DNA from: Bacteroidota bacterium
GTDB lineage: Bacteria > Bacteroidota > Ignavibacteria > Kapaibacteriales > Kapaibacteriaceae
Length of the DNA stretch: 64,000 nucleotides
NCBI GenBank assembly: GCA_041170435.1
Contig: JBEAYU010000045.1
Coordinates: forward strand, 7,975 to 71,974
Reading direction: 5' to 3'
Both the position numbers and the translations under genes were made by a program. Position 1 is the stretch's first letter; each line of letters starts with the position of its first letter. The notes below the pieces were generated by a model. The model did not search any database. It saw only the letters and a list, made by a program, of their open reading frames with translations, and had not been told where the DNA came from. Shown here piece after piece: positions 3,352 through 62,455 of the stretch.

Positions 3352-3776
3352 GTCATTCCCGCGAAAGCGGGAATCCATACATTATAGTAGGGGCGAGACG
3401 CAGTCTCGGCCGATGGTTTGCGCACAACGCCTGACGCGTCATGCTGCATAATTGCCCAGGGCTTTAGCCCTGGGAAAATAGGGGAGCCCCCTTCTACTAA
3501 TCATTTTCAAATCAATTCGATTCTATCTCTTATCCCAGGGCTTCAGCCATGGGAAAATAGAGCAAGAATGATTTGTTTGTGCTGGAATTGAAAGGGGGCT
3601 TGCCCCTCTTTCCCATGGCTGAAGCCATGGGAAGTTATGCGTTAAGATGGATCCCGGCCTGCGCCGGGATGACGGGGGTGCGCGATGAAGATGGATCCCG
3701 GCCTGCGCCGGGATGATGGTGATGGGTGCGGCCGAGAACAATGATGAATGCGGGCGAGACTGCGTCTCGCCCCTAC
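3352..3776. repeat. Repeat cluster A: at least 8 REP-like hairpin elements of several related families
   Basis: Hairpins read directly:
- 3352-3378: gtcattCCCGCGaaagCGCGGGaat-type (attcccgc gaaa gcgggaat)
- 3387-3411 and 3752-3776: GTAG-ggggcgagac...gtctcgcccc-CTAC
- 3455-3474, 3534-3553 and 3612-3631: cccaKggc-loop-gccMtggg
- 3647-3673 and 3691-3717: atggatCCCGGCctgcGCCGGGatga
No credible ORF. Confidence 0.9.
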
Positions 3777-11393: not shown

Positions 11394-11636
11394 CGTCATC
11401 CCGAGGAGGCCCGAACCGAAACCCAGAGCGAAGCGAAAGGGCAGTGAGGGGCGACGAGGGACCTCGCGATGAAGATGGATCCCGGCCTGCGCCGGGATGA
11501 CGGGGGTGCGCGATGAAGATGGATCCCGGCTTGCCCCCTCATTCCCATGGCTGAAGCCATGGGCAATTGTGCATTGAGATGGATCCCGGCCTGCGCCCTC
11601 GCTTCGCTCGGCGCTTCGGCCTAGGGATGATGGAGA
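11394..11636. repeat. Repeat cluster B: nested MITE-like palindromic composite
   Basis: The outer imperfect inverted arms are tcatcccgaggaggcccgaa...gagcgaagcgaaagggc (11394-11444) and gccctcgcttcgctc...ttcggcctagggatga (11592-11636). They enclose atggatcccggcctgcgccgggatgac (11475-11501), truncated copies at 11518-11530 and 11578-11600, and cccatggctgaagccatggg (11544-11563). Confidence 0.85.
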
Positions 11637-16280: not shown

Positions 16281-16306
16281 GTCATTCCCGCGAACGCGGG
16301 AATCCA
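16281..16306. repeat. REP-like hairpin (gtcattcccgcgaacgcgggaatcca)
   Basis: Same family as 3352-3378 and 21796-21822. Confidence 0.9.
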
Positions 16307-16328: not shown

Positions 16329-16513
16329 ATGGATCCCCGCTTTCGCGGGGATGACGAGGATGGATCCCCGCTTTCGCGGGGAAGACGAGGATGGATCCCC
16401 GCTTTCGCGGGGATGACGAGGATGGATCCCCGCTTTCGCGGGGATGACGAGGATGGATCCCCGCTTTCGCAGGGATGACGAGGATGGATCCCCGCTTTCG
16501 CAGGGATGACGAT
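16329..16513. repeat. Six contiguous 31-bp tandem units, each a hairpin (atggatCCCCGCtttcGCGGGGatgacgagg)
   Basis: Units start at 16329, 16360, 16391, 16422, 16453 and 16484. Units 5-6 share a stem mismatch (gcaggg) and unit 2 has gaagac. There are no spacers between units. Confidence 0.95.
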
Positions 16514-19635: not shown

Positions 19636-20448
19636 ATGGAACTCAATCAGATACATTTAGGTAACGCTCTGGAGTTGGTCAATGAACTCGAGCCGGATAG
19701 TATTGATCTGATCGTTTGTGACGGTCCGTACGGGGTGACGCAGAATGAATGGGATCGAATTGGCGACATCCAGACATACAACCTCAATTTGCTGAGGATC
19801 TTCTCACGCGTACTGAAGCCAGGTGGTGCGCTCTATCTGTTCGGCAAGGATGATTGCATCGATTTTATCGACTACCGACCGTACCTCACGCTGAATCGAC
19901 GCATCGTCTGGTATCAGCCGAGTCGACTGGCGCAAGGGCGAATGAACTACACGAACAACTACGATATCATTGCCTACTTCTCGAAGGGCAAGGCCAAGAC
20001 CTACAACCTTGATGACATACGCGTGCCGCAGCTTGTGGAACTCGAACATCGGCTTCGGTGCGAACGTGTTCCTTCAGTCTTGAATGGGCAGTACGGTAAG
20101 ACGCGATTCAATGATCTTGGGAAAAATCCTGGTGATGTATGGGGTGATATCAAGCAGCTGACCTATAAGTCAAAGGAACTGCTTAGACGTGATCTTCTGA
20201 ATACCATTCAGAAACCAGAGCGACTGCTGGAACGTATTGTCCGCGCGAGTTCCAACGAAGGTGATGTTGTGCTGGATCCTTTCTCCGGCGTGGGTACAAC
20301 CTGGGCCGTGTGCGCAAGATTGAATCGCAATTTTATAGGGTTCGAGATCAATCCGCAGTTCATTGAGATATCACGTAAACGACTTGAATCATCATTAGTG
20401 GATACCGAATATGGCCTCTTCTCGGAAAACCCTCGTTCTGAGGTTTAA
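19636..20448 (+). CDS. Type II DNA methyltransferase (beta-class N6A/N4C)
   Basis: Catalytic-motif region DLIVCDGPYGV lies N-terminal and the AdoMet motif VLDPFSGVGTT is C-terminal (beta permutation). The gene is visibly AT-richer than its neighbours. Confidence 0.85.
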   Translation: MELNQIHLGNALELVNELEPDSIDLIVCDGPYGVTQNEWDRIGDIQTYNLNLLRIFSRVLKPGGALYLFGKDDCIDFIDYRPYLTLNRRIVWYQPSRLAQGRMNYTNNYDIIAYFSKGKAKTYNLDDIRVPQLVELEHRLRCERVPSVLNGQYGKTRFNDLGKNPGDVWGDIKQLTYKSKELLRRDLLNTIQKPERLLERIVRASSNEGDVVLDPFSGVGTTWAVCARLNRNFIGFEINPQFIEISRKRLESSLVDTEYGLFSENPRSEV

Positions 20449-20929
20449 TCGCAAAATCGCCAAGCGTATTATTCGTGCCGCCCAGCATCTCTATAGTGAT
20501 GGCCTAGCCCACGGCATCCGGAACATCTTTCAACCGGGCCTTATCAAGGAGATCATTATCGCGGACATTCTTGGTCACCGCGTGATCTCCAACAAACGAT
20601 TGCCGGACGCATGCAGCGCTACTGATGAAAGTGTGTTCTACGAGTACCTGACTTGTGAAGAGGGAGGCTCCTGGCAGATCGATAGGATGTTTTCAAAGCC
20701 CCTGGAGAAGCGCAGGACATCGCTCGACCGAATCCTTCGTAACGAGAAGCTCTATCTCGTGTCATTCAAACGCGACTCGCTGGATGTTTCTGTCATCTTC
20801 GAGGTCGATCCACAAGTCGCCGCTAAGGAAGCCGAGCGACAACTCAATGCAAGCAGTAATGAGATATCGCACATCTCTTTCTCTCAAAGCTGGACAAAGG
20901 TAAACGGAACCGTGGTGTGGACGAAATGA
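20411..20929 (+). CDS. Putative type II restriction endonuclease, PvuII-like
   Basis: 172 aa; overlaps the MTase by 38 nt. By-eye similarity to my recollection of R.PvuII: HGIRNIFQ vs HGINDIFQ, G-x-x-V...DA block, IFEVDPQ vs IYRLEPK. The Lys of the E-x-K motif is not evident. Confidence 0.5.
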   Translation: MASSRKTLVLRFNRKIAKRIIRAAQHLYSDGLAHGIRNIFQPGLIKEIIIADILGHRVISNKRLPDACSATDESVFYEYLTCEEGGSWQIDRMFSKPLEKRRTSLDRILRNEKLYLVSFKRDSLDVSVIFEVDPQVAAKEAERQLNASSNEISHISFSQSWTKVNGTVVWTK

Positions 20930-20968: not shown

Positions 20969-22264
20969 ATGCACATCCTCATCATCGGTAACGGCATTGC
21001 CGGAGCAACGCTCGCACGCAGGCTACGAGAGCTGGGGCGAGGCGATGAGCCACTGGTGACGCTGATCTCCGATGAAGCCCCTTATCACTTCTCGCGTCCG
21101 GCTATGATGTACATCTCCACCGGACAGCTCAGGTACGAGCATACGAAGTCATACCCGGATGGGTCGTGGGATGACCTCGGCATCAAACGCATGCAGGGTC
21201 GGGTAGAGCGCATCGATGCCGAAGCGCAGAGGGTGCACATGAGCGATGGCACGACGCTCGAGGCCGATGTGATCGTCATTGCCACGGGATCGAAGCCAAA
21301 CATTCCGGCTGGACTCAACACCACGCTCCGTGGCGTGCATACCTACACGCGCTTGGAGGACGTGGCTGCGCTTGATGAATCCTTGAAGGGGGCTCTCCAC
21401 GGCGTGGTCATTGGTGGCGGTCTCATCGGTGTAGAAGCTGCCGAGATCGTGTCCACGCACATGCACAAGCGAGCGGGGAGCACTATCACGTGTGTGGTTC
21501 GCGAAGACGGATTCTATGCCAATGTGCTGCCAAGTGAGGAATCGCAGATCATCACCGAGCATTTGCGGCAGCACGGCATCAGCGTGCGGGTTTCCTCAAC
21601 GGTGGTATCCATCGACGATCAGGATGGTGATGGTCGCGTTGATCATGTGACGTTCAGCGATGGCTCCGTGATCCCGGCCAACGTGGTCGTTGTGGCCACT
21701 GGAGTGGTTCCGCGAACGGAGCTTGCCAAGGAGGCGGGAATTGCGTGCGGCGAAGGTATTGTCGTTGACGATCGATTTCGGACGAGTCATACGAAGTCAT
21801 TCCCGCAAGAGCGGGAATCCATTATCTACGCCATCGGCGACTGTGCTCAGCTGCCATGGGGTGTGCGGCCGACGTGGTATGCCGGACGCATGCATGCAGA
21901 GCATTTGGCCCACATTCTCGCAGGACATGACGAGCCGTTTCGCGATCCCATCGATTATAACAGCGCGAGGTTCTTTGATCTTGACTGGTCTACCTATGGC
22001 CACGTGCCCGCTGACGCGAGCGCAGTCAATAGCATTCTTCTCGTGGATACCGATGGCCAACGTTGTGTGCGAATCGTTCATGATGCCCACAGGTGCGTCA
22101 TCGGTATCCATGCGATTGGTCTGCGTTTGCATCAGACCGCGTGTGAGCAATGGATCGCGCAGCGCCAGCCCCTTGACGAAGCACTCAAAGAGTTGAATGC
22201 GGTGATGTTCAATGCTGAGTTTGTGCCGGCATTCGTTTCGGCATTTAGAGGAGAGGCGCAGTGA
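20969..22264 (+). CDS. FAD-dependent pyridine nucleotide-disulfide oxidoreductase family protein
   Basis: N-terminal ILIIGNGIAGA dinucleotide fold, second Rossmann VVIGGGLIGVEAA, C-terminal IYAIGDCA motif. Confidence 0.85.
   Translation: MHILIIGNGIAGATLARRLRELGRGDEPLVTLISDEAPYHFSRPAMMYISTGQLRYEHTKSYPDGSWDDLGIKRMQGRVERIDAEAQRVHMSDGTTLEADVIVIATGSKPNIPAGLNTTLRGVHTYTRLEDVAALDESLKGALHGVVIGGGLIGVEAAEIVSTHMHKRAGSTITCVVREDGFYANVLPSEESQIITEHLRQHGISVRVSSTVVSIDDQDGDGRVDHVTFSDGSVIPANVVVVATGVVPRTELAKEAGIACGEGIVVDDRFRTSHTKSFPQERESIIYAIGDCAQLPWGVRPTWYAGRMHAEHLAHILAGHDEPFRDPIDYNSARFFDLDWSTYGHVPADASAVNSILLVDTDGQRCVRIVHDAHRCVIGIHAIGLRLHQTACEQWIAQRQPLDEALKELNAVMFNAEFVPAFVSAFRGEAQ
21796..21822. repeat. REP-like hairpin copy (gtcattcccgcaagagcgggaatccat) inside the oxidoreductase CDS, in frame
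   Basis: Same element as 3352-3378 and 16281-16306. It translates as SFPQERESI, immediately before the conserved IYAIGD motif. Confidence 0.85.
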
Positions 22265-23370
22265 CAGGTATGCAGCATCCGGTGCAGATCATCCTTCCGA
22301 AGGGGGCTGGGCGGTCTGCGACGATGACGAGCTCGTTAGAGCAGCGTCCATGGCTGCGCTATATGCTGGCCGCTTTGATGACCGGCTTCTACGTCTGTGT
22401 TTACTGGTTCCCATCTGTGCTCGATCCGTTGACGCGATCCGCTGATTGCCTGTCACAAGCACTGCGACAACGTCCGGCCGATGTATGGTTTGTGTACGGT
22501 ACCATCTACACGATTGCCGTGGTTCTCTTTGGCATACGATCACTTCTGCGAAACGGTCACGAGCGATACCACCGCTACCGAATCCTGGTGCTCATGTTTG
22601 TGCAGTGCATTGCGGCGTATCTCATTCCCGCCATGCTTGTGCGCAGCGGAAGGGGCGAGTTCTACTTCTCCTACTTCTGGCCGCTCAAGCCCGAGTATCT
22701 CTTCCCATCATCCGTTACGACGATGATGTCGAGTCACGACGCTCTCATGACCTTTGCTGCTTGGTGGAGCATCATCCTGTTGGTTCTTGCCACGCCCCTT
22801 CTCACCTACTTCTATGGCAAGCGTTGGTACTGCTCGTGGGTTTGCGGCTGTGGAGCACTAGCCGAGACGGTCGGTGATGACCTTCGACACCTGAGTAGCA
22901 CGTCGAAGGACAGCTGGACGCTTGAGCGGTGGACCATCTATCCGGTCTTGGGAATCATCGCGATCATCACGATCCTGCTCTGGCAACAGCATGTTGATCC
23001 AAGTCCACAACTGTCGGGCGTTGTCAGCCATGCCAACCGCATCTACGGCTTTGTCATCGGCGGACTCTTCTCCGGCGTCATCGGCGTGGGCTTCTACCCG
23101 ATCTTCGGTGCCCGTATCTGGTGTCGCTTCGGATGTCCCATGGCCGCCATCCTGGGCATCCTTCAGAAGTACGCCTCTCGCTTCCGCATCGAGGTCAACC
23201 CCGGACAATGCATCTCCTGCGGCAACTGCAGCACCTACTGCGAGATGGGTATCGATGTGCGTTCCTACGCCGAAAGGGGCGAAACCATCAAGCGCGCCTC
23301 CTGCGTCGGCTGCGGCGTGTGCTCCAGCGTATGCCCCAGAGGAGTGTTGAGAGTGACGAGTGACGAGTGA
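22261..23370 (+). CDS. Polytopic membrane 4Fe-4S ferredoxin-type protein (NapH/MauN-like)
   Basis: Cys clusters CSWVCGCG, CRFGCP, CISCGNCSTYC and CVGCGVCSSVCP. Several TM helices. GTGA overlap with the upstream oxidoreductase. The stop lies within the heptamer array. Confidence 0.8.
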   Translation: MTGMQHPVQIILPKGAGRSATMTSSLEQRPWLRYMLAALMTGFYVCVYWFPSVLDPLTRSADCLSQALRQRPADVWFVYGTIYTIAVVLFGIRSLLRNGHERYHRYRILVLMFVQCIAAYLIPAMLVRSGRGEFYFSYFWPLKPEYLFPSSVTTMMSSHDALMTFAAWWSIILLVLATPLLTYFYGKRWYCSWVCGCGALAETVGDDLRHLSSTSKDSWTLERWTIYPVLGIIAIITILLWQQHVDPSPQLSGVVSHANRIYGFVIGGLFSGVIGVGFYPIFGARIWCRFGCPMAAILGILQKYASRFRIEVNPGQCISCGNCSTYCEMGIDVRSYAERGETIKRASCVGCGVCSSVCPRGVLRVTSDE

Positions 23371-60484: not shown

Positions 60485-61804
60485 ATGACCTCGCGTCGAT
60501 CGATGTTACGCTCGTTAGCGGCACTAGGGCCGACCGCACTGTTCGCCTCCGAGTCGCTTGCTGCGGTAACGCAGTGGCTGCCGACGGCATCACCTCATGT
60601 CCCCGCATCCGTGGTCGCTGAGGACGAGGATTTCTGGTCTACCGTGCAACAGGCATTCGATGTTGACAGGTCGATCATCAACCTCAATAACGGCGGAGTG
60701 TCCCCGTCGCCCCGTACCGTTCAGGCTGCCTTTCGGCGGTATACGGACCAGGCAAACAACATGCCCGCCTATGAGATGTGGCGCCACCAAGAGCCGCAGG
60801 TCGAGTCCATTCGCGAAGGCTTGGCAGACATTTTCGCCGTCAGCCCCGAAGAGATCGCCATAACACGCAATGCCAGCGAGGCCCTCGAAACACTCCAACT
60901 CGGAATGCCTCTTGAACGGGGCGATGAAGTATTGACCACGACGCATGATTATCCGAGGATGCTCACGACGTGGGAGCAGCGAGCCCGCCGCGATGGGATT
61001 GTGATCAAGAAGGTGGGTTTCCCGACGCCGCTGAAGCGACGCCAAGATTTTGTCGATGCGATCGAAGCCGGTATCACGGACCGCACAAAGGTCATCCACA
61101 TCTCCCACGTCGTCTTTCTCACCGGTCAGATCTTGCCTGTTCGTGACGTATGCCGCCTGGCAGCTCGCCGGAACATCCGTTGTATCGTCGATGGAGCGCA
61201 TTCGTTTGCCCACTTTCCGTTCACCCAGAAGGATCTCGAGTGCGAGTACTTCGGGACGTCCTTGCACAAGTGGTTCCTTGGTCCGATCGGCACAGGGATG
61301 CTGTACGTCAAGAAGGAGCGCATCGCCGATGTGTGGCCTCTGATGGCGGCACCCAAAGACATGGATGCCAACATCAGGAAGTTTGAGGAGATTGGAACGC
61401 ATCCGGCGGCCATGCATAACGCACTGATAGAATCGATCGCATTCCATCGTGCCATGGGGGTGGAACGCAAGGCCGCCCGTCTGCGCCATCTTCATACCGT
61501 ATGGACCGATCAGCTGGGGAAGTTCGACAACGTCCGCTTTCTCACCGATATCGCGGACGACGAGAATCAATGCGGACTTCGCTTGGTGCACATCGAAGGG
61601 ACGGATCCCGGCAAGGTGTCTTCCTACCTTCTCGAAAAGCATAGGATCTTTACCGTATCGATCGGTCACGAAGATTTCAAGGGGCTTCGGGTTGCCCCTT
61701 CAGTGTACACAACGGTCGACGAGATGATGCGGTTTTCCAAGGCCATGAGCATGATCGCCCGTGGCGAGGCCGGATCTGCCGTGTCAGTTGATGTGAAGGG
61801 CTGA
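60485..61804 (+). CDS. Class V aminotransferase-fold PLP enzyme with Tat-type signal
   Basis: Twin-arginine N-terminus TSRRSMLRSLAALG. Class V fold with the SLHKW Lys motif. Confidence 0.8.
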   Translation: MTSRRSMLRSLAALGPTALFASESLAAVTQWLPTASPHVPASVVAEDEDFWSTVQQAFDVDRSIINLNNGGVSPSPRTVQAAFRRYTDQANNMPAYEMWRHQEPQVESIREGLADIFAVSPEEIAITRNASEALETLQLGMPLERGDEVLTTTHDYPRMLTTWEQRARRDGIVIKKVGFPTPLKRRQDFVDAIEAGITDRTKVIHISHVVFLTGQILPVRDVCRLAARRNIRCIVDGAHSFAHFPFTQKDLECEYFGTSLHKWFLGPIGTGMLYVKKERIADVWPLMAAPKDMDANIRKFEEIGTHPAAMHNALIESIAFHRAMGVERKAARLRHLHTVWTDQLGKFDNVRFLTDIADDENQCGLRLVHIEGTDPGKVSSYLLEKHRIFTVSIGHEDFKGLRVAPSVYTTVDEMMRFSKAMSMIARGEAGSAVSVDVKG

Positions 61805-62260
61805 CAATCCGCGGGTCGTATCGCCAATGTCCGCAAACGGTGGCGGGCTGTTGGGGCGGAAAACTTCGTCAAGCTCATCCTCAAGCGTGCGCGTCTCGTG
61901 AAACCGGTCCTGGTCGCGCACGAAGCTCGCCATGATCTCCAGGTGCCATGGTGGTAGCAGTGTTACGTGCACGGCCTCGTCCCACTCGAACGAGCGAAGG
62001 TGAGCCCCCTGACTGCGAAGGGTGCGCCGAAGATCCTCCAGTACCTCCCCGATGAAGTCTGGAATGCTCGCCTCCTCATTCACGGAAAGCAGAATGTGCA
62101 CATGGTCCTCGCGGGTGTGCACTGCAGCCGAGCGCAGTTTGTGCCGTTGTGCCGTCCGGTCGACCGTCTGCTCTAAGAGGTGGTGAATGCCGCGGGGAAT
62201 CATGAGTCCCTCTCCGGGAATGATGATCAGGTGAAGCCCCAGCCCTTTATATGCTTGCAT
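61784..62260 (-). CDS. IS200/IS605 Y1-transposase-like (RAYT-like) protein with Phe at the expected catalytic Tyr position
   Basis: HUH motif in EDHVHILLSV. The C-terminal helix reads SFVRDQDRFHE where the family has YIxNQxxHH. Start at Met 62260 is assumed. 21-nt convergent overlap with the aminotransferase. Confidence 0.5.
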   Translation of the reverse strand: MQAYKGLGLHLIIIPGEGLMIPRGIHHLLEQTVDRTAQRHKLRSAAVHTREDHVHILLSVNEEASIPDFIGEVLEDLRRTLRSQGAHLRSFEWDEAVHVTLLPPWHLEIMASFVRDQDRFHETRTLEDELDEVFRPNSPPPFADIGDTTRGLSALHIN

Positions 62261-62455
62261 TGTGGTGCCCAAGTTGAACGTGAGAGAAAGTTGGTTTGCA
62301 TCCACTTCGTGTTTCTTCGGTGGCAGAACGTGACATGAGCCGTCAAGCCGGGCCAACATCCGTGACATCTGGGCGTCGTAAATTGCCGCTCCGAGGACGC
62401 CCAGTCGGTGCGCACGGGTAGTTCCACTTCACAACAGCGATAGAGGCCCCTTACT

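What the first reader, a model, noticed from the sequence alone, without database searches (positions are those of the whole stretch)
21796..21822. REP-like hairpin element inserted in frame inside the FAD-oxidoreductase gene, just before its conserved IYAIGD motif
**The insert.** The 27-bp element gtcattcccgcaagagcgggaatccat belongs to the same family as the intergenic copies at 3352-3378 and 16281-16306. It lies within the CDS 20969-22264 and is translated as SFPQERESI.

**Comparison with the family.** As I recall it, the motif is ...RTS-(2 to 4 residues)-IYAIGD. Here it reads RTSHTKSFPQERESIIYAIGD, so the protein carries about 9 extra residues that correspond to the element. The length is a multiple of three and the frame remains open. 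The loop sequence (caagag versus gaaa/gaac) differs from the intergenic copies.

**Interpretation.** This appears to be an insertion of a palindromic repeat into a surface loop next to the FAD-binding motif that the protein tolerates.
Basis: partly seen in the sequence, partly recalled or inferred. Interest (0 to 1): 0.6.

Follow-up and report, generated by a model that had tools for sequence, protein, structure and literature searches.

The report
Hairpin repeat translated inside enzyme gene

Summary
Observation and first-reader interpretation are both confirmed.

**The element.** Window 21796-21822 is a copy of a dispersed 26-28 bp repeat, consensus cGTCATYCCCGC-GAAA-GCGGGRATCCAt. The genome holds about 119 copies; chance predicts none.

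**The insertion.**
- It lies in frame in a Pyr_redox_2 FAD oxidoreductase gene, as residues 277-285 (SFPQERESI).
- Nine orthologues at 74-92% identity carry it at the same codon. Two of them have the exact canonical 26-mer.
- All syntenic orthologues at or below 57% identity, and solved structures, lack exactly these 9 residues.
- Removing the 27 bp rejoins an Asn codon and gives RTSHTN-IYAIGD, the family consensus.

**State of the gene.** It stays under purifying selection (dN/dS 0.15-0.3; dS about 1 across the carriers). The insert is the only internal low-confidence segment of an otherwise confident AlphaFold model.

**Other in-frame copies.** Two more were found, in a YfhO-like gene and a DUF2520-like gene.

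**Classification.** The repeat fits the published CGTC-1 REP family, which includes Neisseria dRS3 and Rickettsia RPE-6. Intragenic copies of that family are known, and it has no known transposase; none was identified here either.

**Verdict.** New member of a known kind, modest interest. One loose end remains: synonymous sites in the inserts are more conserved than the surrounding gene (combined p about 0.01).

The parts
21796..21822 (+). The 27-bp in-frame copy of the CGTC-1-type REP: GTC, stem arm 21799-21806, loop AAGA 21807-21810, stem arm 21811-21818, tail CCA 21819-21821, then T. It encodes residues 277-285 (SFPQERESI) and splits an ancestral AAT/AAC Asn codon.
20969..22264 (+). Host gene: a 431-aa FAD/NAD(P) oxidoreductase (Pyr_redox_2, ferredoxin-reductase-like fold). 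It is intact and under purifying selection.
22261..23370 (+). Downstream NapH/MauN-like membrane 4Fe-4S ferredoxin gene. It is syntenic with the oxidoreductase in all relatives, which shows that the insert-less genes are true orthologues.
3352..3377 (+). Intergenic canonical copy, GTCATTCCCGCGAAAGCGGGAATCCA.
16281..16306 (+). Intergenic copy with loop GAAC (1 mismatch).
16330..16510 (-). Head-to-tail array of six copies of the ATCCCCGC/GCGGGGAT subfamily, period 31.
3648..3673 (-). Copy of the third subfamily, GTCATCCCGGCGCAGGCCGGGATCCA (C45:11622-11647).
11476..11501 (-). Copy of the third subfamily (C45:19450-19475).

Best explanation
One unit of a small palindromic repeat of the CGTC-1 REP type (tag CGTC, 8-bp stem ATTCCCGC/GCGGGAAT, 4-nt loop, tail CCA) was copied into the FAD oxidoreductase gene. 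This happened in an ancestor of a small clade of Candidatus Kapaibacterium.

**How the frame survived.** The inserted piece is 27 bp. It split an Asn codon (AA|T) in the turn between the 'RTS' strand and the 'IYAIGD' FAD-binding strand. Because 27 is a multiple of three and this frame of the element has no stop, the protein gained a 9-residue hydrophilic loop, originally SFPRKRESI.

**What happened since.** The loop lies in a position that is a short surface turn in all relatives, so the enzyme tolerated it. The gene has stayed under purifying selection, while the insert drifted: peptide changes accumulated and a synonymous change broke the stem in several lineages.

**Shown:** family membership, exact site, presence only in a clade, age, intact and selected host gene, and other in-frame copies.

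**Inferred:** the way the element was copied (no transposase identified), and that the loop is functionally neutral.
For: **Family and significance:**

**Same 27-bp insert at the same codon in 9 orthologues.**
- G001 and P0003 carry the exact canonical 26-mer.
- There is a 9-column gap in all homologues at or below 57% identity and in PDB 3lxd_A.
- Orthology is backed by the conserved NapH-like neighbour.

**Empty site.** Excising the 27 bp gives AAT/AAC = Asn and RTSHTN-IYAIGD. This matches the commonest family pattern, xPN-IYAIGD.

**Link to repeat-rich genomes.** Carriers sit in such genomes: G000 73, G001 16, G003 44 and G023 154 strict copies. Genomes with insert-less orthologues have 0-2.

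**Selection.**
- Gene dN/dS is 0.15-0.30, with dS about 1.0 between the deepest carriers.
- Insert pN/pS is about 0.61 against 0.28 gene-wide.
- The synonymous change CGG>CGA breaks the stem in 5 of 9 sequences.

**Structure.** AlphaFold mean pLDDT is 88.9, and the only internal segment below 50 is residues 277-282. The fold matches ferredoxin reductases.

**Distribution.** Only about 3 of 119 copies lie inside real genes, all in frame.

**Literature.** Intragenic CGTC and GTAG REPs and RPEs are described in PMC3733652 and PMC10969869.
Against: - No empty-site allele exists among close relatives. The nearest insert-less orthologue is only 57% identical, so the 'before' state is inferred.
- The exact 27-bp boundaries are chosen from the genomic consensus. 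A window shifted by one base would also restore a frame.
- Synonymous divergence inside the insert is lower than expected for an old neutral passenger: pS 0.168 against 0.557, the lowest 2.6% of windows. The YfhO-like insert shows the same.
- No enzyme that could move the element was found.
- Surface exposure rests on a predicted model, not on coordinates examined next to FAD.
Confidence: 0.85

Rival explanations
1. The insert is not a passive fossil. Its nucleotide sequence is kept, either because the element still works as a DNA or RNA site inside the gene (a protein-binding or recombination site, an mRNA hairpin) or because the 9-residue loop has been put to use, for example in contact with the NapH-like partner.
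For: - Between the two deep carrier clades the insert's pS is 0.168 against a gene mean of 0.557. Only 2 of 47 non-overlapping windows are as low, and the flanking windows are about 0.5.
- The YfhO-like insert has pS 0 against 0.45. The combined p is about 0.013.
- The stem is perfect in the window copy, at -12.8 kcal/mol.
Against: - The commonest synonymous change (CGG>CGA) breaks the stem in 5 of 9 lineages without compensation.
- The peptide varies at 6 of 9 positions, and pN/pS is higher than in the rest of the gene.
- The sample is small: 9 and 2 sequences, 8-9 codons.
Confidence: 0.12
2. The insert is kept close to the canonical repeat by gene conversion from the more than 100 genomic copies, or it arose by repeated insertion at a preferred site in separate lineages, rather than from one old event followed by drift.
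For: - Synonymous divergence in the insert is low.
- G023's insert carries loop GAAT, a loop type abundant among G023's own genomic copies but not in G000.
- CGG/CGA is polymorphic in both deep clades.
Against: - Position, length and orientation are identical in all 9 carriers.
- The window copy has a loop (AAGA) found in no other genomic copy.
- The YfhO-like insert shares a derived CGA>CAA change between G000 and G003, as expected from common descent.
- Tracts of 26 bp are very short for homologous conversion (established knowledge).
Confidence: 0.1
3. The resemblance to the repeat is coincidental, or the repeat family derives from this gene segment and the extra loop is an ordinary lineage-specific indel.
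For: None beyond the short length of the element.
Against: - The match is 24/26, and 26/26 in two orthologues, with 0.00 matches expected by chance.
- The family occurs in other families of the order, in genomes with no close orthologue of this gene (G029, G039).
- It also occurs in Neisseria (PMC7593972, PMC3733652).
Confidence: 0.01

Closest known systems
CGTC-1 family of tagged REPs (Di Nocera, De Gregorio, Rocco 2013, BMC Genomics 14:522, PMC3733652)
   Same: - It has the unpaired CGTC head, an 8-bp stem beginning with A-T pairs, a 4-nt loop and a CCA tail.
- The family was reported in Chlorobi and Bacteroidetes among five phyla.
- Intragenic, translated copies were reported in several species.
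- No dedicated transposase is known, and none was identified here.
   Different: - Here neighbouring units are mostly head-to-tail arrays (40 pairs) or have their CCA tails facing (8). None have their CGTC heads facing. The paper reports HH dimers as predominant and HT as negligible.
- The intragenic copy has AGTC instead of CGTC at the junction.
- The host taxon (Kapaibacterium) and host gene are new.
Rickettsia palindromic elements (RPE; Ogata et al. 2000, as summarised in PMC10969869). RPE-6 equals CGTC-1 according to PMC3733652.
   Same: A selfish palindromic repeat is inserted in frame in an unrelated metabolic gene. It adds a peptide segment at a position compatible with the fold, and it is shared by related species.
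   Different: - The classic RPE-1 is about 100-150 bp and adds 30-50 residues. This one is a single 27-bp unit adding 9.
- Only about 3 of 119 copies are intragenic here, whereas dozens are in R. conorii.
- The host is free-living, not an obligate intracellular bacterium.
Neisseria dRS3 repeats of NIME arrays (ATTCCC-N8-GGGAAT; PMC1797815)
   Same: - The 20-bp core matches the dRS3 consensus exactly.
- A gonococcal copy upstream of pilE reads GTCATTCCCGCGAAAGCGGGAATCTA, 25 of 26 identical (PMC7593972).
- Copies are clustered in arrays.
   Different: - Array spacers here are 3-13 bp, not RS elements of 50-150 bp.
- No IS110/Piv-type recombinase gene was found in this draft genome.
- There is no evidence of prophage integration.
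GTAG REPs with RAYT transposases (REPtrons)
   Same: Both are short GC-rich extragenic hairpins in many copies. A Y1 (IS200-like) transposase in this genome is bracketed by inverted arms that include one unit of the repeat.
   Different: - There is no GTAG head.
- The transposase's orthologues in G001, G016 and G023 are flanked only by a different hairpin, CCCCGGGCC-AA-GGCCCGGGG.
- The protein scores 26.6 bits against NCBIfam REP_Tyr_transpos, whose cut-off is 80.

Membership tests
CGTC-1 REP (PMC3733652) | Unpaired 5' tag CGTC (variants TGTC, CCTC) | tested here: met
   The consensus of 97 genomic copies is c-GTCAT.... The intragenic copy itself reads AGTC at the junction.
CGTC-1 REP (PMC3733652) | 8-bp stem with complementary A/T in the first and second positions | tested here: met
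   The stem is ATTCCCGC / GCGGGAAT, perfect in the window copy.
CGTC-1 REP (PMC3733652) | 4-nt loop | tested here: met
   The loop is GAAA, GAAC, GGAA or GAAG in genomic copies and AAGA in the gene.
CGTC-1 REP (PMC3733652) | Short unpaired tail fitting CCA | tested here: met
   ...GGGAAT-CCA appears in nearly all copies.
CGTC-1 REP (PMC3733652) | Units mostly arranged as HH dimers, with HT negligible | tested here: not met
   Of neighbours within 60 bp, 40 have the same orientation, 8 have tails facing and 0 have heads facing. This is a typical feature in the paper, not a strict definition.
CGTC-1 REP (PMC3733652) | No transposase gene flanked by the units | tested here: inconclusive
   One Y1 transposase (C21:383-757) has a unit in each 121-bp inverted arm, but its orthologues do not. 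No DEDD/IS110 or DUF559 gene was found. The genome is a draft of 93 contigs.
Neisseria dRS3 / NIME | 20-bp inverted repeat ATTCCC-N8-GGGAAT | tested here: met
   There are 36 exact ATTCCCGC-N4-GCGGGAAT sites. The consensus is taken from PMC1797815.
Neisseria dRS3 / NIME | dRS3 units flank RS elements of about 50-150 bp | tested here: not met
   Array periods are 29-39 bp, which leaves spacers of 3-13 bp.
Intragenic palindromic repeat of the RPE kind | Repeat unit inside a real gene, frame kept, absent from orthologues | tested here: met
Intragenic palindromic repeat of the RPE kind | Insert lies at a surface position compatible with the fold | tested here: inconclusive
   The insert has low pLDDT in a confident model, and there is a gap in solved homologues. 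Coordinates were not inspected, and there is no experimental structure.
REP/RAYT (REPtron) | GTAG head and a cognate RAYT flanked by the same REP | tested here: not met
   There is no GTAG head. The RAYT model scores 26.6 against a cut-off of 80. Orthologues are flanked by another hairpin.
Pyr_redox_2 FAD/NAD(P) oxidoreductase (host gene) | Pfam domain over the cut-off, two dinucleotide-binding motifs and the GD motif | tested here: met
   PF07992 scores 168 bits against a cut-off of 26.1. GNGIAG, GGGLIG and AIGD are invariant in A1. Foldseek TM is about 0.8 to ferredoxin reductases.

The most novel reading that the evidence does not exclude
CGTC-1 (dRS3-type) repeats that land inside genes do not simply decay. 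Their nucleotide sequence is held near the family consensus over dS of about 1, either by conversion from the genomic pool or because the unit remains a working DNA/RNA site. Together with the head-to-tail arrays seen here, this would point to an active, still unidentified maintenance or copying mechanism for a repeat family shared by Neisseria, Rickettsia and Kapabacteria that has no known transposase.
Probability: 0.15. Interest if true: 0.55.

Novelty: new member of a known kind. Interest (0 to 1): 0.33.

Why it matters
This is a clean, datable example of how selfish hairpin repeats add loops to enzymes.

- The boundaries can be read to the base.
- The ancestral codon can be reconstructed.
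- The insert has survived for roughly one synonymous substitution per site, next to a cofactor-binding motif.

It extends intragenic CGTC-1 REPs to a free-living, uncultured Bacteroidota-related lineage (Kapaibacterium). It also gives three natural test cases for loop tolerance.

The wider open question is how CGTC REPs are copied, given that no transposase is known for them. This work does not answer it, but it sharpens it in two ways. The only Y1 transposase next to the units turns out to have a different cognate hairpin. The inserts also show unexplained conservation at synonymous sites.

Tried and rejected
1. **RAYT as mobiliser.**
 - A Y1 transposase at G000:C21:383-757 has 121-bp inverted arms that each contain one unit.
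 - Its orthologues in G001, G016 and G023 are flanked only by the hairpin CCCCGGGCC-AA-GGCCCGGGG, with compensatory changes in G023.
 - It therefore most likely sits inside a pair of units by accident. Rejected as the cognate enzyme.
2. **IS110/Piv-type recombinase** (the enzyme that targets dRS3 in Neisseria): no PF01548 match in the genome.
3. **DUF559 nuclease** (a lead from earlier notes of this scan): no match.
4. **More carrier sequences from metagenome contigs:** the scan returned only one insert-less relative at 54% identity. DNA for P0006 was not retrievable.
5. **Other stop-free frames spanning repeat copies:** about 60 frames of at least 150 codons looked like non-coding or antisense translations and were discarded by eye. 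Pfam was not run on them.
6. **Literature search by the translated peptides** (SFPRKRES, IPAKAGI, SRFRGND and others): nothing found. The DNA string found only a gonococcal construct sequence.
7. **Exceptional overall nucleotide conservation of the insert:** not supported. It falls at the 20th percentile of 26-nt windows. Only the synonymous-site measure stands out.

Full report
**1. The observation.**

Window 21796-21821 reads GTCATTCCCGCAAGAGCGGGAATCCA.
- The exact canonical form GTCATTCCCGCGAAAGCGGGAATCCA lies at 3352-3377.
- A one-mismatch copy lies at 16281-16306.
- Six head-to-tail copies of a GGGGA variant lie at 16330-16510 on the minus strand.
- That makes nine matches with up to 3 mismatches in the window, against 0.00 expected from shuffles.

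The window is G000:C45:7975-71974 of a 2.48-Mb, 93-contig genome.
- The genome holds 36 exact ATTCCCGC-N4-GCGGGAAT sites, against 0 for the control pattern.
- About 119 copies lie within 4 mismatches. They fall into three subfamilies whose stems differ by paired substitutions: ATTCCCGC, ATCCCCGC and ATCCCGGC.
- The consensus with flanks is c-GTCAT[T/C]CCCGC-GAAA-GCGGG[A/G]ATCCA-t.
- The gene copy differs from canonical only in the loop (AAGA for GAAA). It folds as an 8-bp stem and 4-nt loop at -12.8 kcal/mol, z = -5.3.

**2. The host gene.**

ORF 20969-22264 encodes a 431-aa Pyr_redox_2 protein (E = 4e-49). Its predicted fold matches ferredoxin, putidaredoxin and rubredoxin reductases, with TM about 0.8.

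It is followed, with a 4-bp overlap, by a NapH/MauN-like membrane 4Fe-4S protein. This gene pair is conserved in every relative examined, with or without the insert, so the compared genes are positional orthologues.

Record titles place the relatives in Candidatus Kapaibacterium (Kapabacteria). These are freshwater metagenome-assembled genomes.

**3. It is an insertion.**

In alignment A1 the nine closest homologues (74-92% identical) all have nine extra residues between RTSxxK and IYAIGD. Every homologue at or below 57% identity has a nine-column gap there. The same gap appears against the solved structure 3lxd_A.

At the DNA level nine carriers have the element at the same codon, in the same orientation and with the same length:

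| Sequence(s) | State of the 26-mer |
|---|---|
| G001, P0003 | exact canonical |
| G003, P0002 | 1 change |
| G000 (this window), G023, P0008 | 2 changes |
| P0001 | 3 changes |
| P0004 | 4 changes |

The genomic consensus usually continues with T after CCA, so the inserted piece is most simply the 27 bp GTCAT...ATCCAT. Taking it out joins AA to T (or to C in G001 and G003), giving an Asn codon and the sequence RTSHTN-IYAIGD. Asn is the commonest residue at that position in the wider family, as in xPN-IYAIGD. A window shifted by one base would also keep the frame, so this reconstruction is favoured, not proven.

**4. Link to the repeat pool.**

| Group | Genomes (strict copies of the repeat) |
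|---|---|
| Carriers | G000 (73), G001 (16), G003 (44), G023 (154) |
| Insert-less orthologues | G004 (1), G014 (2), G010 (0), G015 (2) |

The repeat also occurs in other families of the order (G029, G039), whose genomes gave no close orthologue of this gene. The family therefore does not derive from this gene.

**5. Age and selection.**
- Whole-gene dN/dS is 0.15-0.30.
- dS is about 1.0 between the G000/G001 group and the G003/G023 group, so the insertion is old and the gene has remained functional.
- The insert's peptide varies: SFPRKRESI, SFPQERESI, SFLRERESI, SLPRERESI, SSPRERESI, SIPRKRESI, SFPRMRKSI and SFPRKRESN.
- Insert pN/pS is about 0.61, against 0.28 for the gene.
- A synonymous CGG>CGA change breaks the stem in five of nine sequences without compensation. 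The hairpin is therefore not being preserved inside the gene.

**6. Structure.**

The AlphaFold model built on A1 has mean pLDDT 88.9 and pTM 0.85. Apart from the C-terminal tail, the only segment with pLDDT below 50 is residues 277-282, inside the insert (277-285). It is flanked by the strand that carries the GD motif. Solved homologues have only a short turn here. The loop is therefore read as a floppy surface extension. This is an inference, because coordinates were not inspected.

**7. Other in-frame copies.**

Of about 119 copies, about three lie inside credible genes, and all three keep the frame.
- **YfhO-like membrane protein, G000:C43:1897-1922.** A 30-bp insert (NPSFPQKRES) is shared with G003 (NPSFPQQRES), including the derived CGA>CAA change. 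It is absent from seven other orthologues.
- **DUF2520-like Rossmann protein, G000:C24:2669-2694.** One and a half units of the third subfamily encode VIPAQAVIPAQAGIH in the loop after the GxGxxG helix. They are absent from the 78%-identical G003 orthologue.

The rarity of intragenic copies in a genome that is mostly coding suggests that most such insertions are removed by selection.

**8. What family it is.**

The element fits the published definition of CGTC-1 REPs (PMC3733652): an unpaired CGTC head, an 8-bp stem starting with A-T pairs, a 4-nt loop and a CCA tail.

That paper makes four relevant statements.
- CGTC-1 corresponds to Neisseria dRS3 and to Rickettsia conorii RPE-6.
- CGTC REPs occur in Chlorobi and Bacteroidetes, among other phyla.
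- Intragenic translated copies occur in several species.
- CGTC REPs lack a dedicated transposase.

The core also matches the dRS3 consensus ATTCCC-N8-GGGAAT (PMC1797815). A gonococcal copy upstream of pilE is 25 of 26 identical (PMC7593972). In-frame insertion of palindromic repeats is the classic RPE phenomenon (PMC10969869).

One difference from the published picture is the arrangement. Here 40 neighbouring pairs are head-to-tail, 8 have their tails facing and none have their heads facing.

**9. Who moves it.**

The genome has three Y1 (IS200-like) transposase matches.
- The one at C21:383-757 is bracketed by 121-bp inverted arms, 91% matched, each containing one unit.
- Its orthologues in G001, G016 and G023 are flanked only by another hairpin, CCCCGGGCC-AA-GGCCCGGGG, which shows compensatory changes in G023.
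- It scores 89 bits on the IS200 model and 26.6 (cut-off 80) on the RAYT model.
- I read this as a transposase unit sitting between two CGTC-1 units, not as their mobiliser.

No IS110-type or DUF559 gene was found. The copying mechanism remains unknown, as in the literature.

**10. A loose end.**
- Between the two deep carrier clades the nine insert codons have pS 0.168, against a gene mean of 0.557. That is the lowest 2.6% of windows, and the flanking windows are about 0.5.
- In the YfhO-like gene the insert has pS 0 against 0.45, which 6.6% of windows match.
- Combined by Fisher's method, p is about 0.013.
- G023's insert also carries the loop type (GAAT) that is common among G023's own copies.

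Three readings are possible: conversion from the genomic pool, a sequence-level role, or chance. The data are too few to decide.

**11. Verdict.**

The thing is an old, tolerated, in-frame insertion of one CGTC-1 REP unit into a surface turn of an FAD oxidoreductase. It is a new instance, in a new lineage and gene, of a known kind of event.

Noticed in passing
G000:C24:2588-3364 (own genome, outside the window); L031, L034, L036: The loop after the GxGxxG helix of a DUF2520-like Rossmann protein is a hot spot for translated repeat DNA. This genome has 1.5 REP units there (VIPAQAVIPAQAGIH). G001, G006 and G013 have in-frame inserts made of 7-bp tandem arrays (TELRNDG..., TDYGLRS..., TKYEGTGVPGYKG), and G013 also has a decayed REP (IPAETGIQ).
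   Followed up: partly
G000:C43:1897-1922 (own genome, outside the window); L044: There is a second shared in-frame REP insertion, 30 bp encoding NPSFPQKRES, near the C-terminus of a YfhO-like membrane protein. It is present in G003 and absent in seven other orthologues.
   Followed up: yes
window 21796-21822 and G000:C43:1897-1922: Synonymous sites inside the two shared REP inserts are much more conserved than in the rest of each gene (pS 0.168 vs 0.557, and 0 vs 0.45). This holds even though the stem is broken in several lineages.
   Followed up: partly
G000:C21:175-926 (own genome); L059, L060, L061: A Y1 (IS200-like) transposase has 121-bp inverted arms. Its conserved flanking hairpin in four species is CCCCGGGCC-AA-GGCCCGGGG (CCCACGGCC..GGCCGTGGG in G023, a compensatory variant). 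This looks like a REPtron-like unit of a different repeat family.
   Followed up: partly
window 16330-16510; G000:C52:55648-56139; G000:C40:83427-83642: The REP units form long head-to-tail arrays with periods of 31, 39 and 38 bp. One locus has up to 12 units. The published survey of CGTC REPs calls this arrangement negligible.
   Followed up: partly
P0008 / L057: This homologue looks chimeric. Its first 340 residues or so, including the insert, resemble the carrier clade. Its C-terminal 85 residues or so resemble the insert-less P0010/P0016 clade. It may be a natural recombinant or an assembly chimera.
   Followed up: no
L002 (G001) versus L036 and L049: G001 is the nearest relative for the oxidoreductase/NapH-like pair (88% and 95% aa). 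It is distant for the YfhO-like (52%) and DUF2520-like (65%) genes, where G003 is nearest. The cause may be transfer of the locus, or paralogues.
   Followed up: no
window 19636-20929: An N6/N4 DNA methyltransferase gene and an overlapping 172-aa ORF with no Pfam hit lie directly upstream of the oxidoreductase. Some relatives have them and others lack them (L052-L056), as expected of a small mobile restriction-modification cassette.
   Followed up: no
window 61784-62368 (-): This ORF is a weak IS200-like match: 23 bits on NCBIfam, and 30 bits on Pfam Y1_Tnp. No REP units of the CGTC-1 family lie near it.
   Followed up: partly
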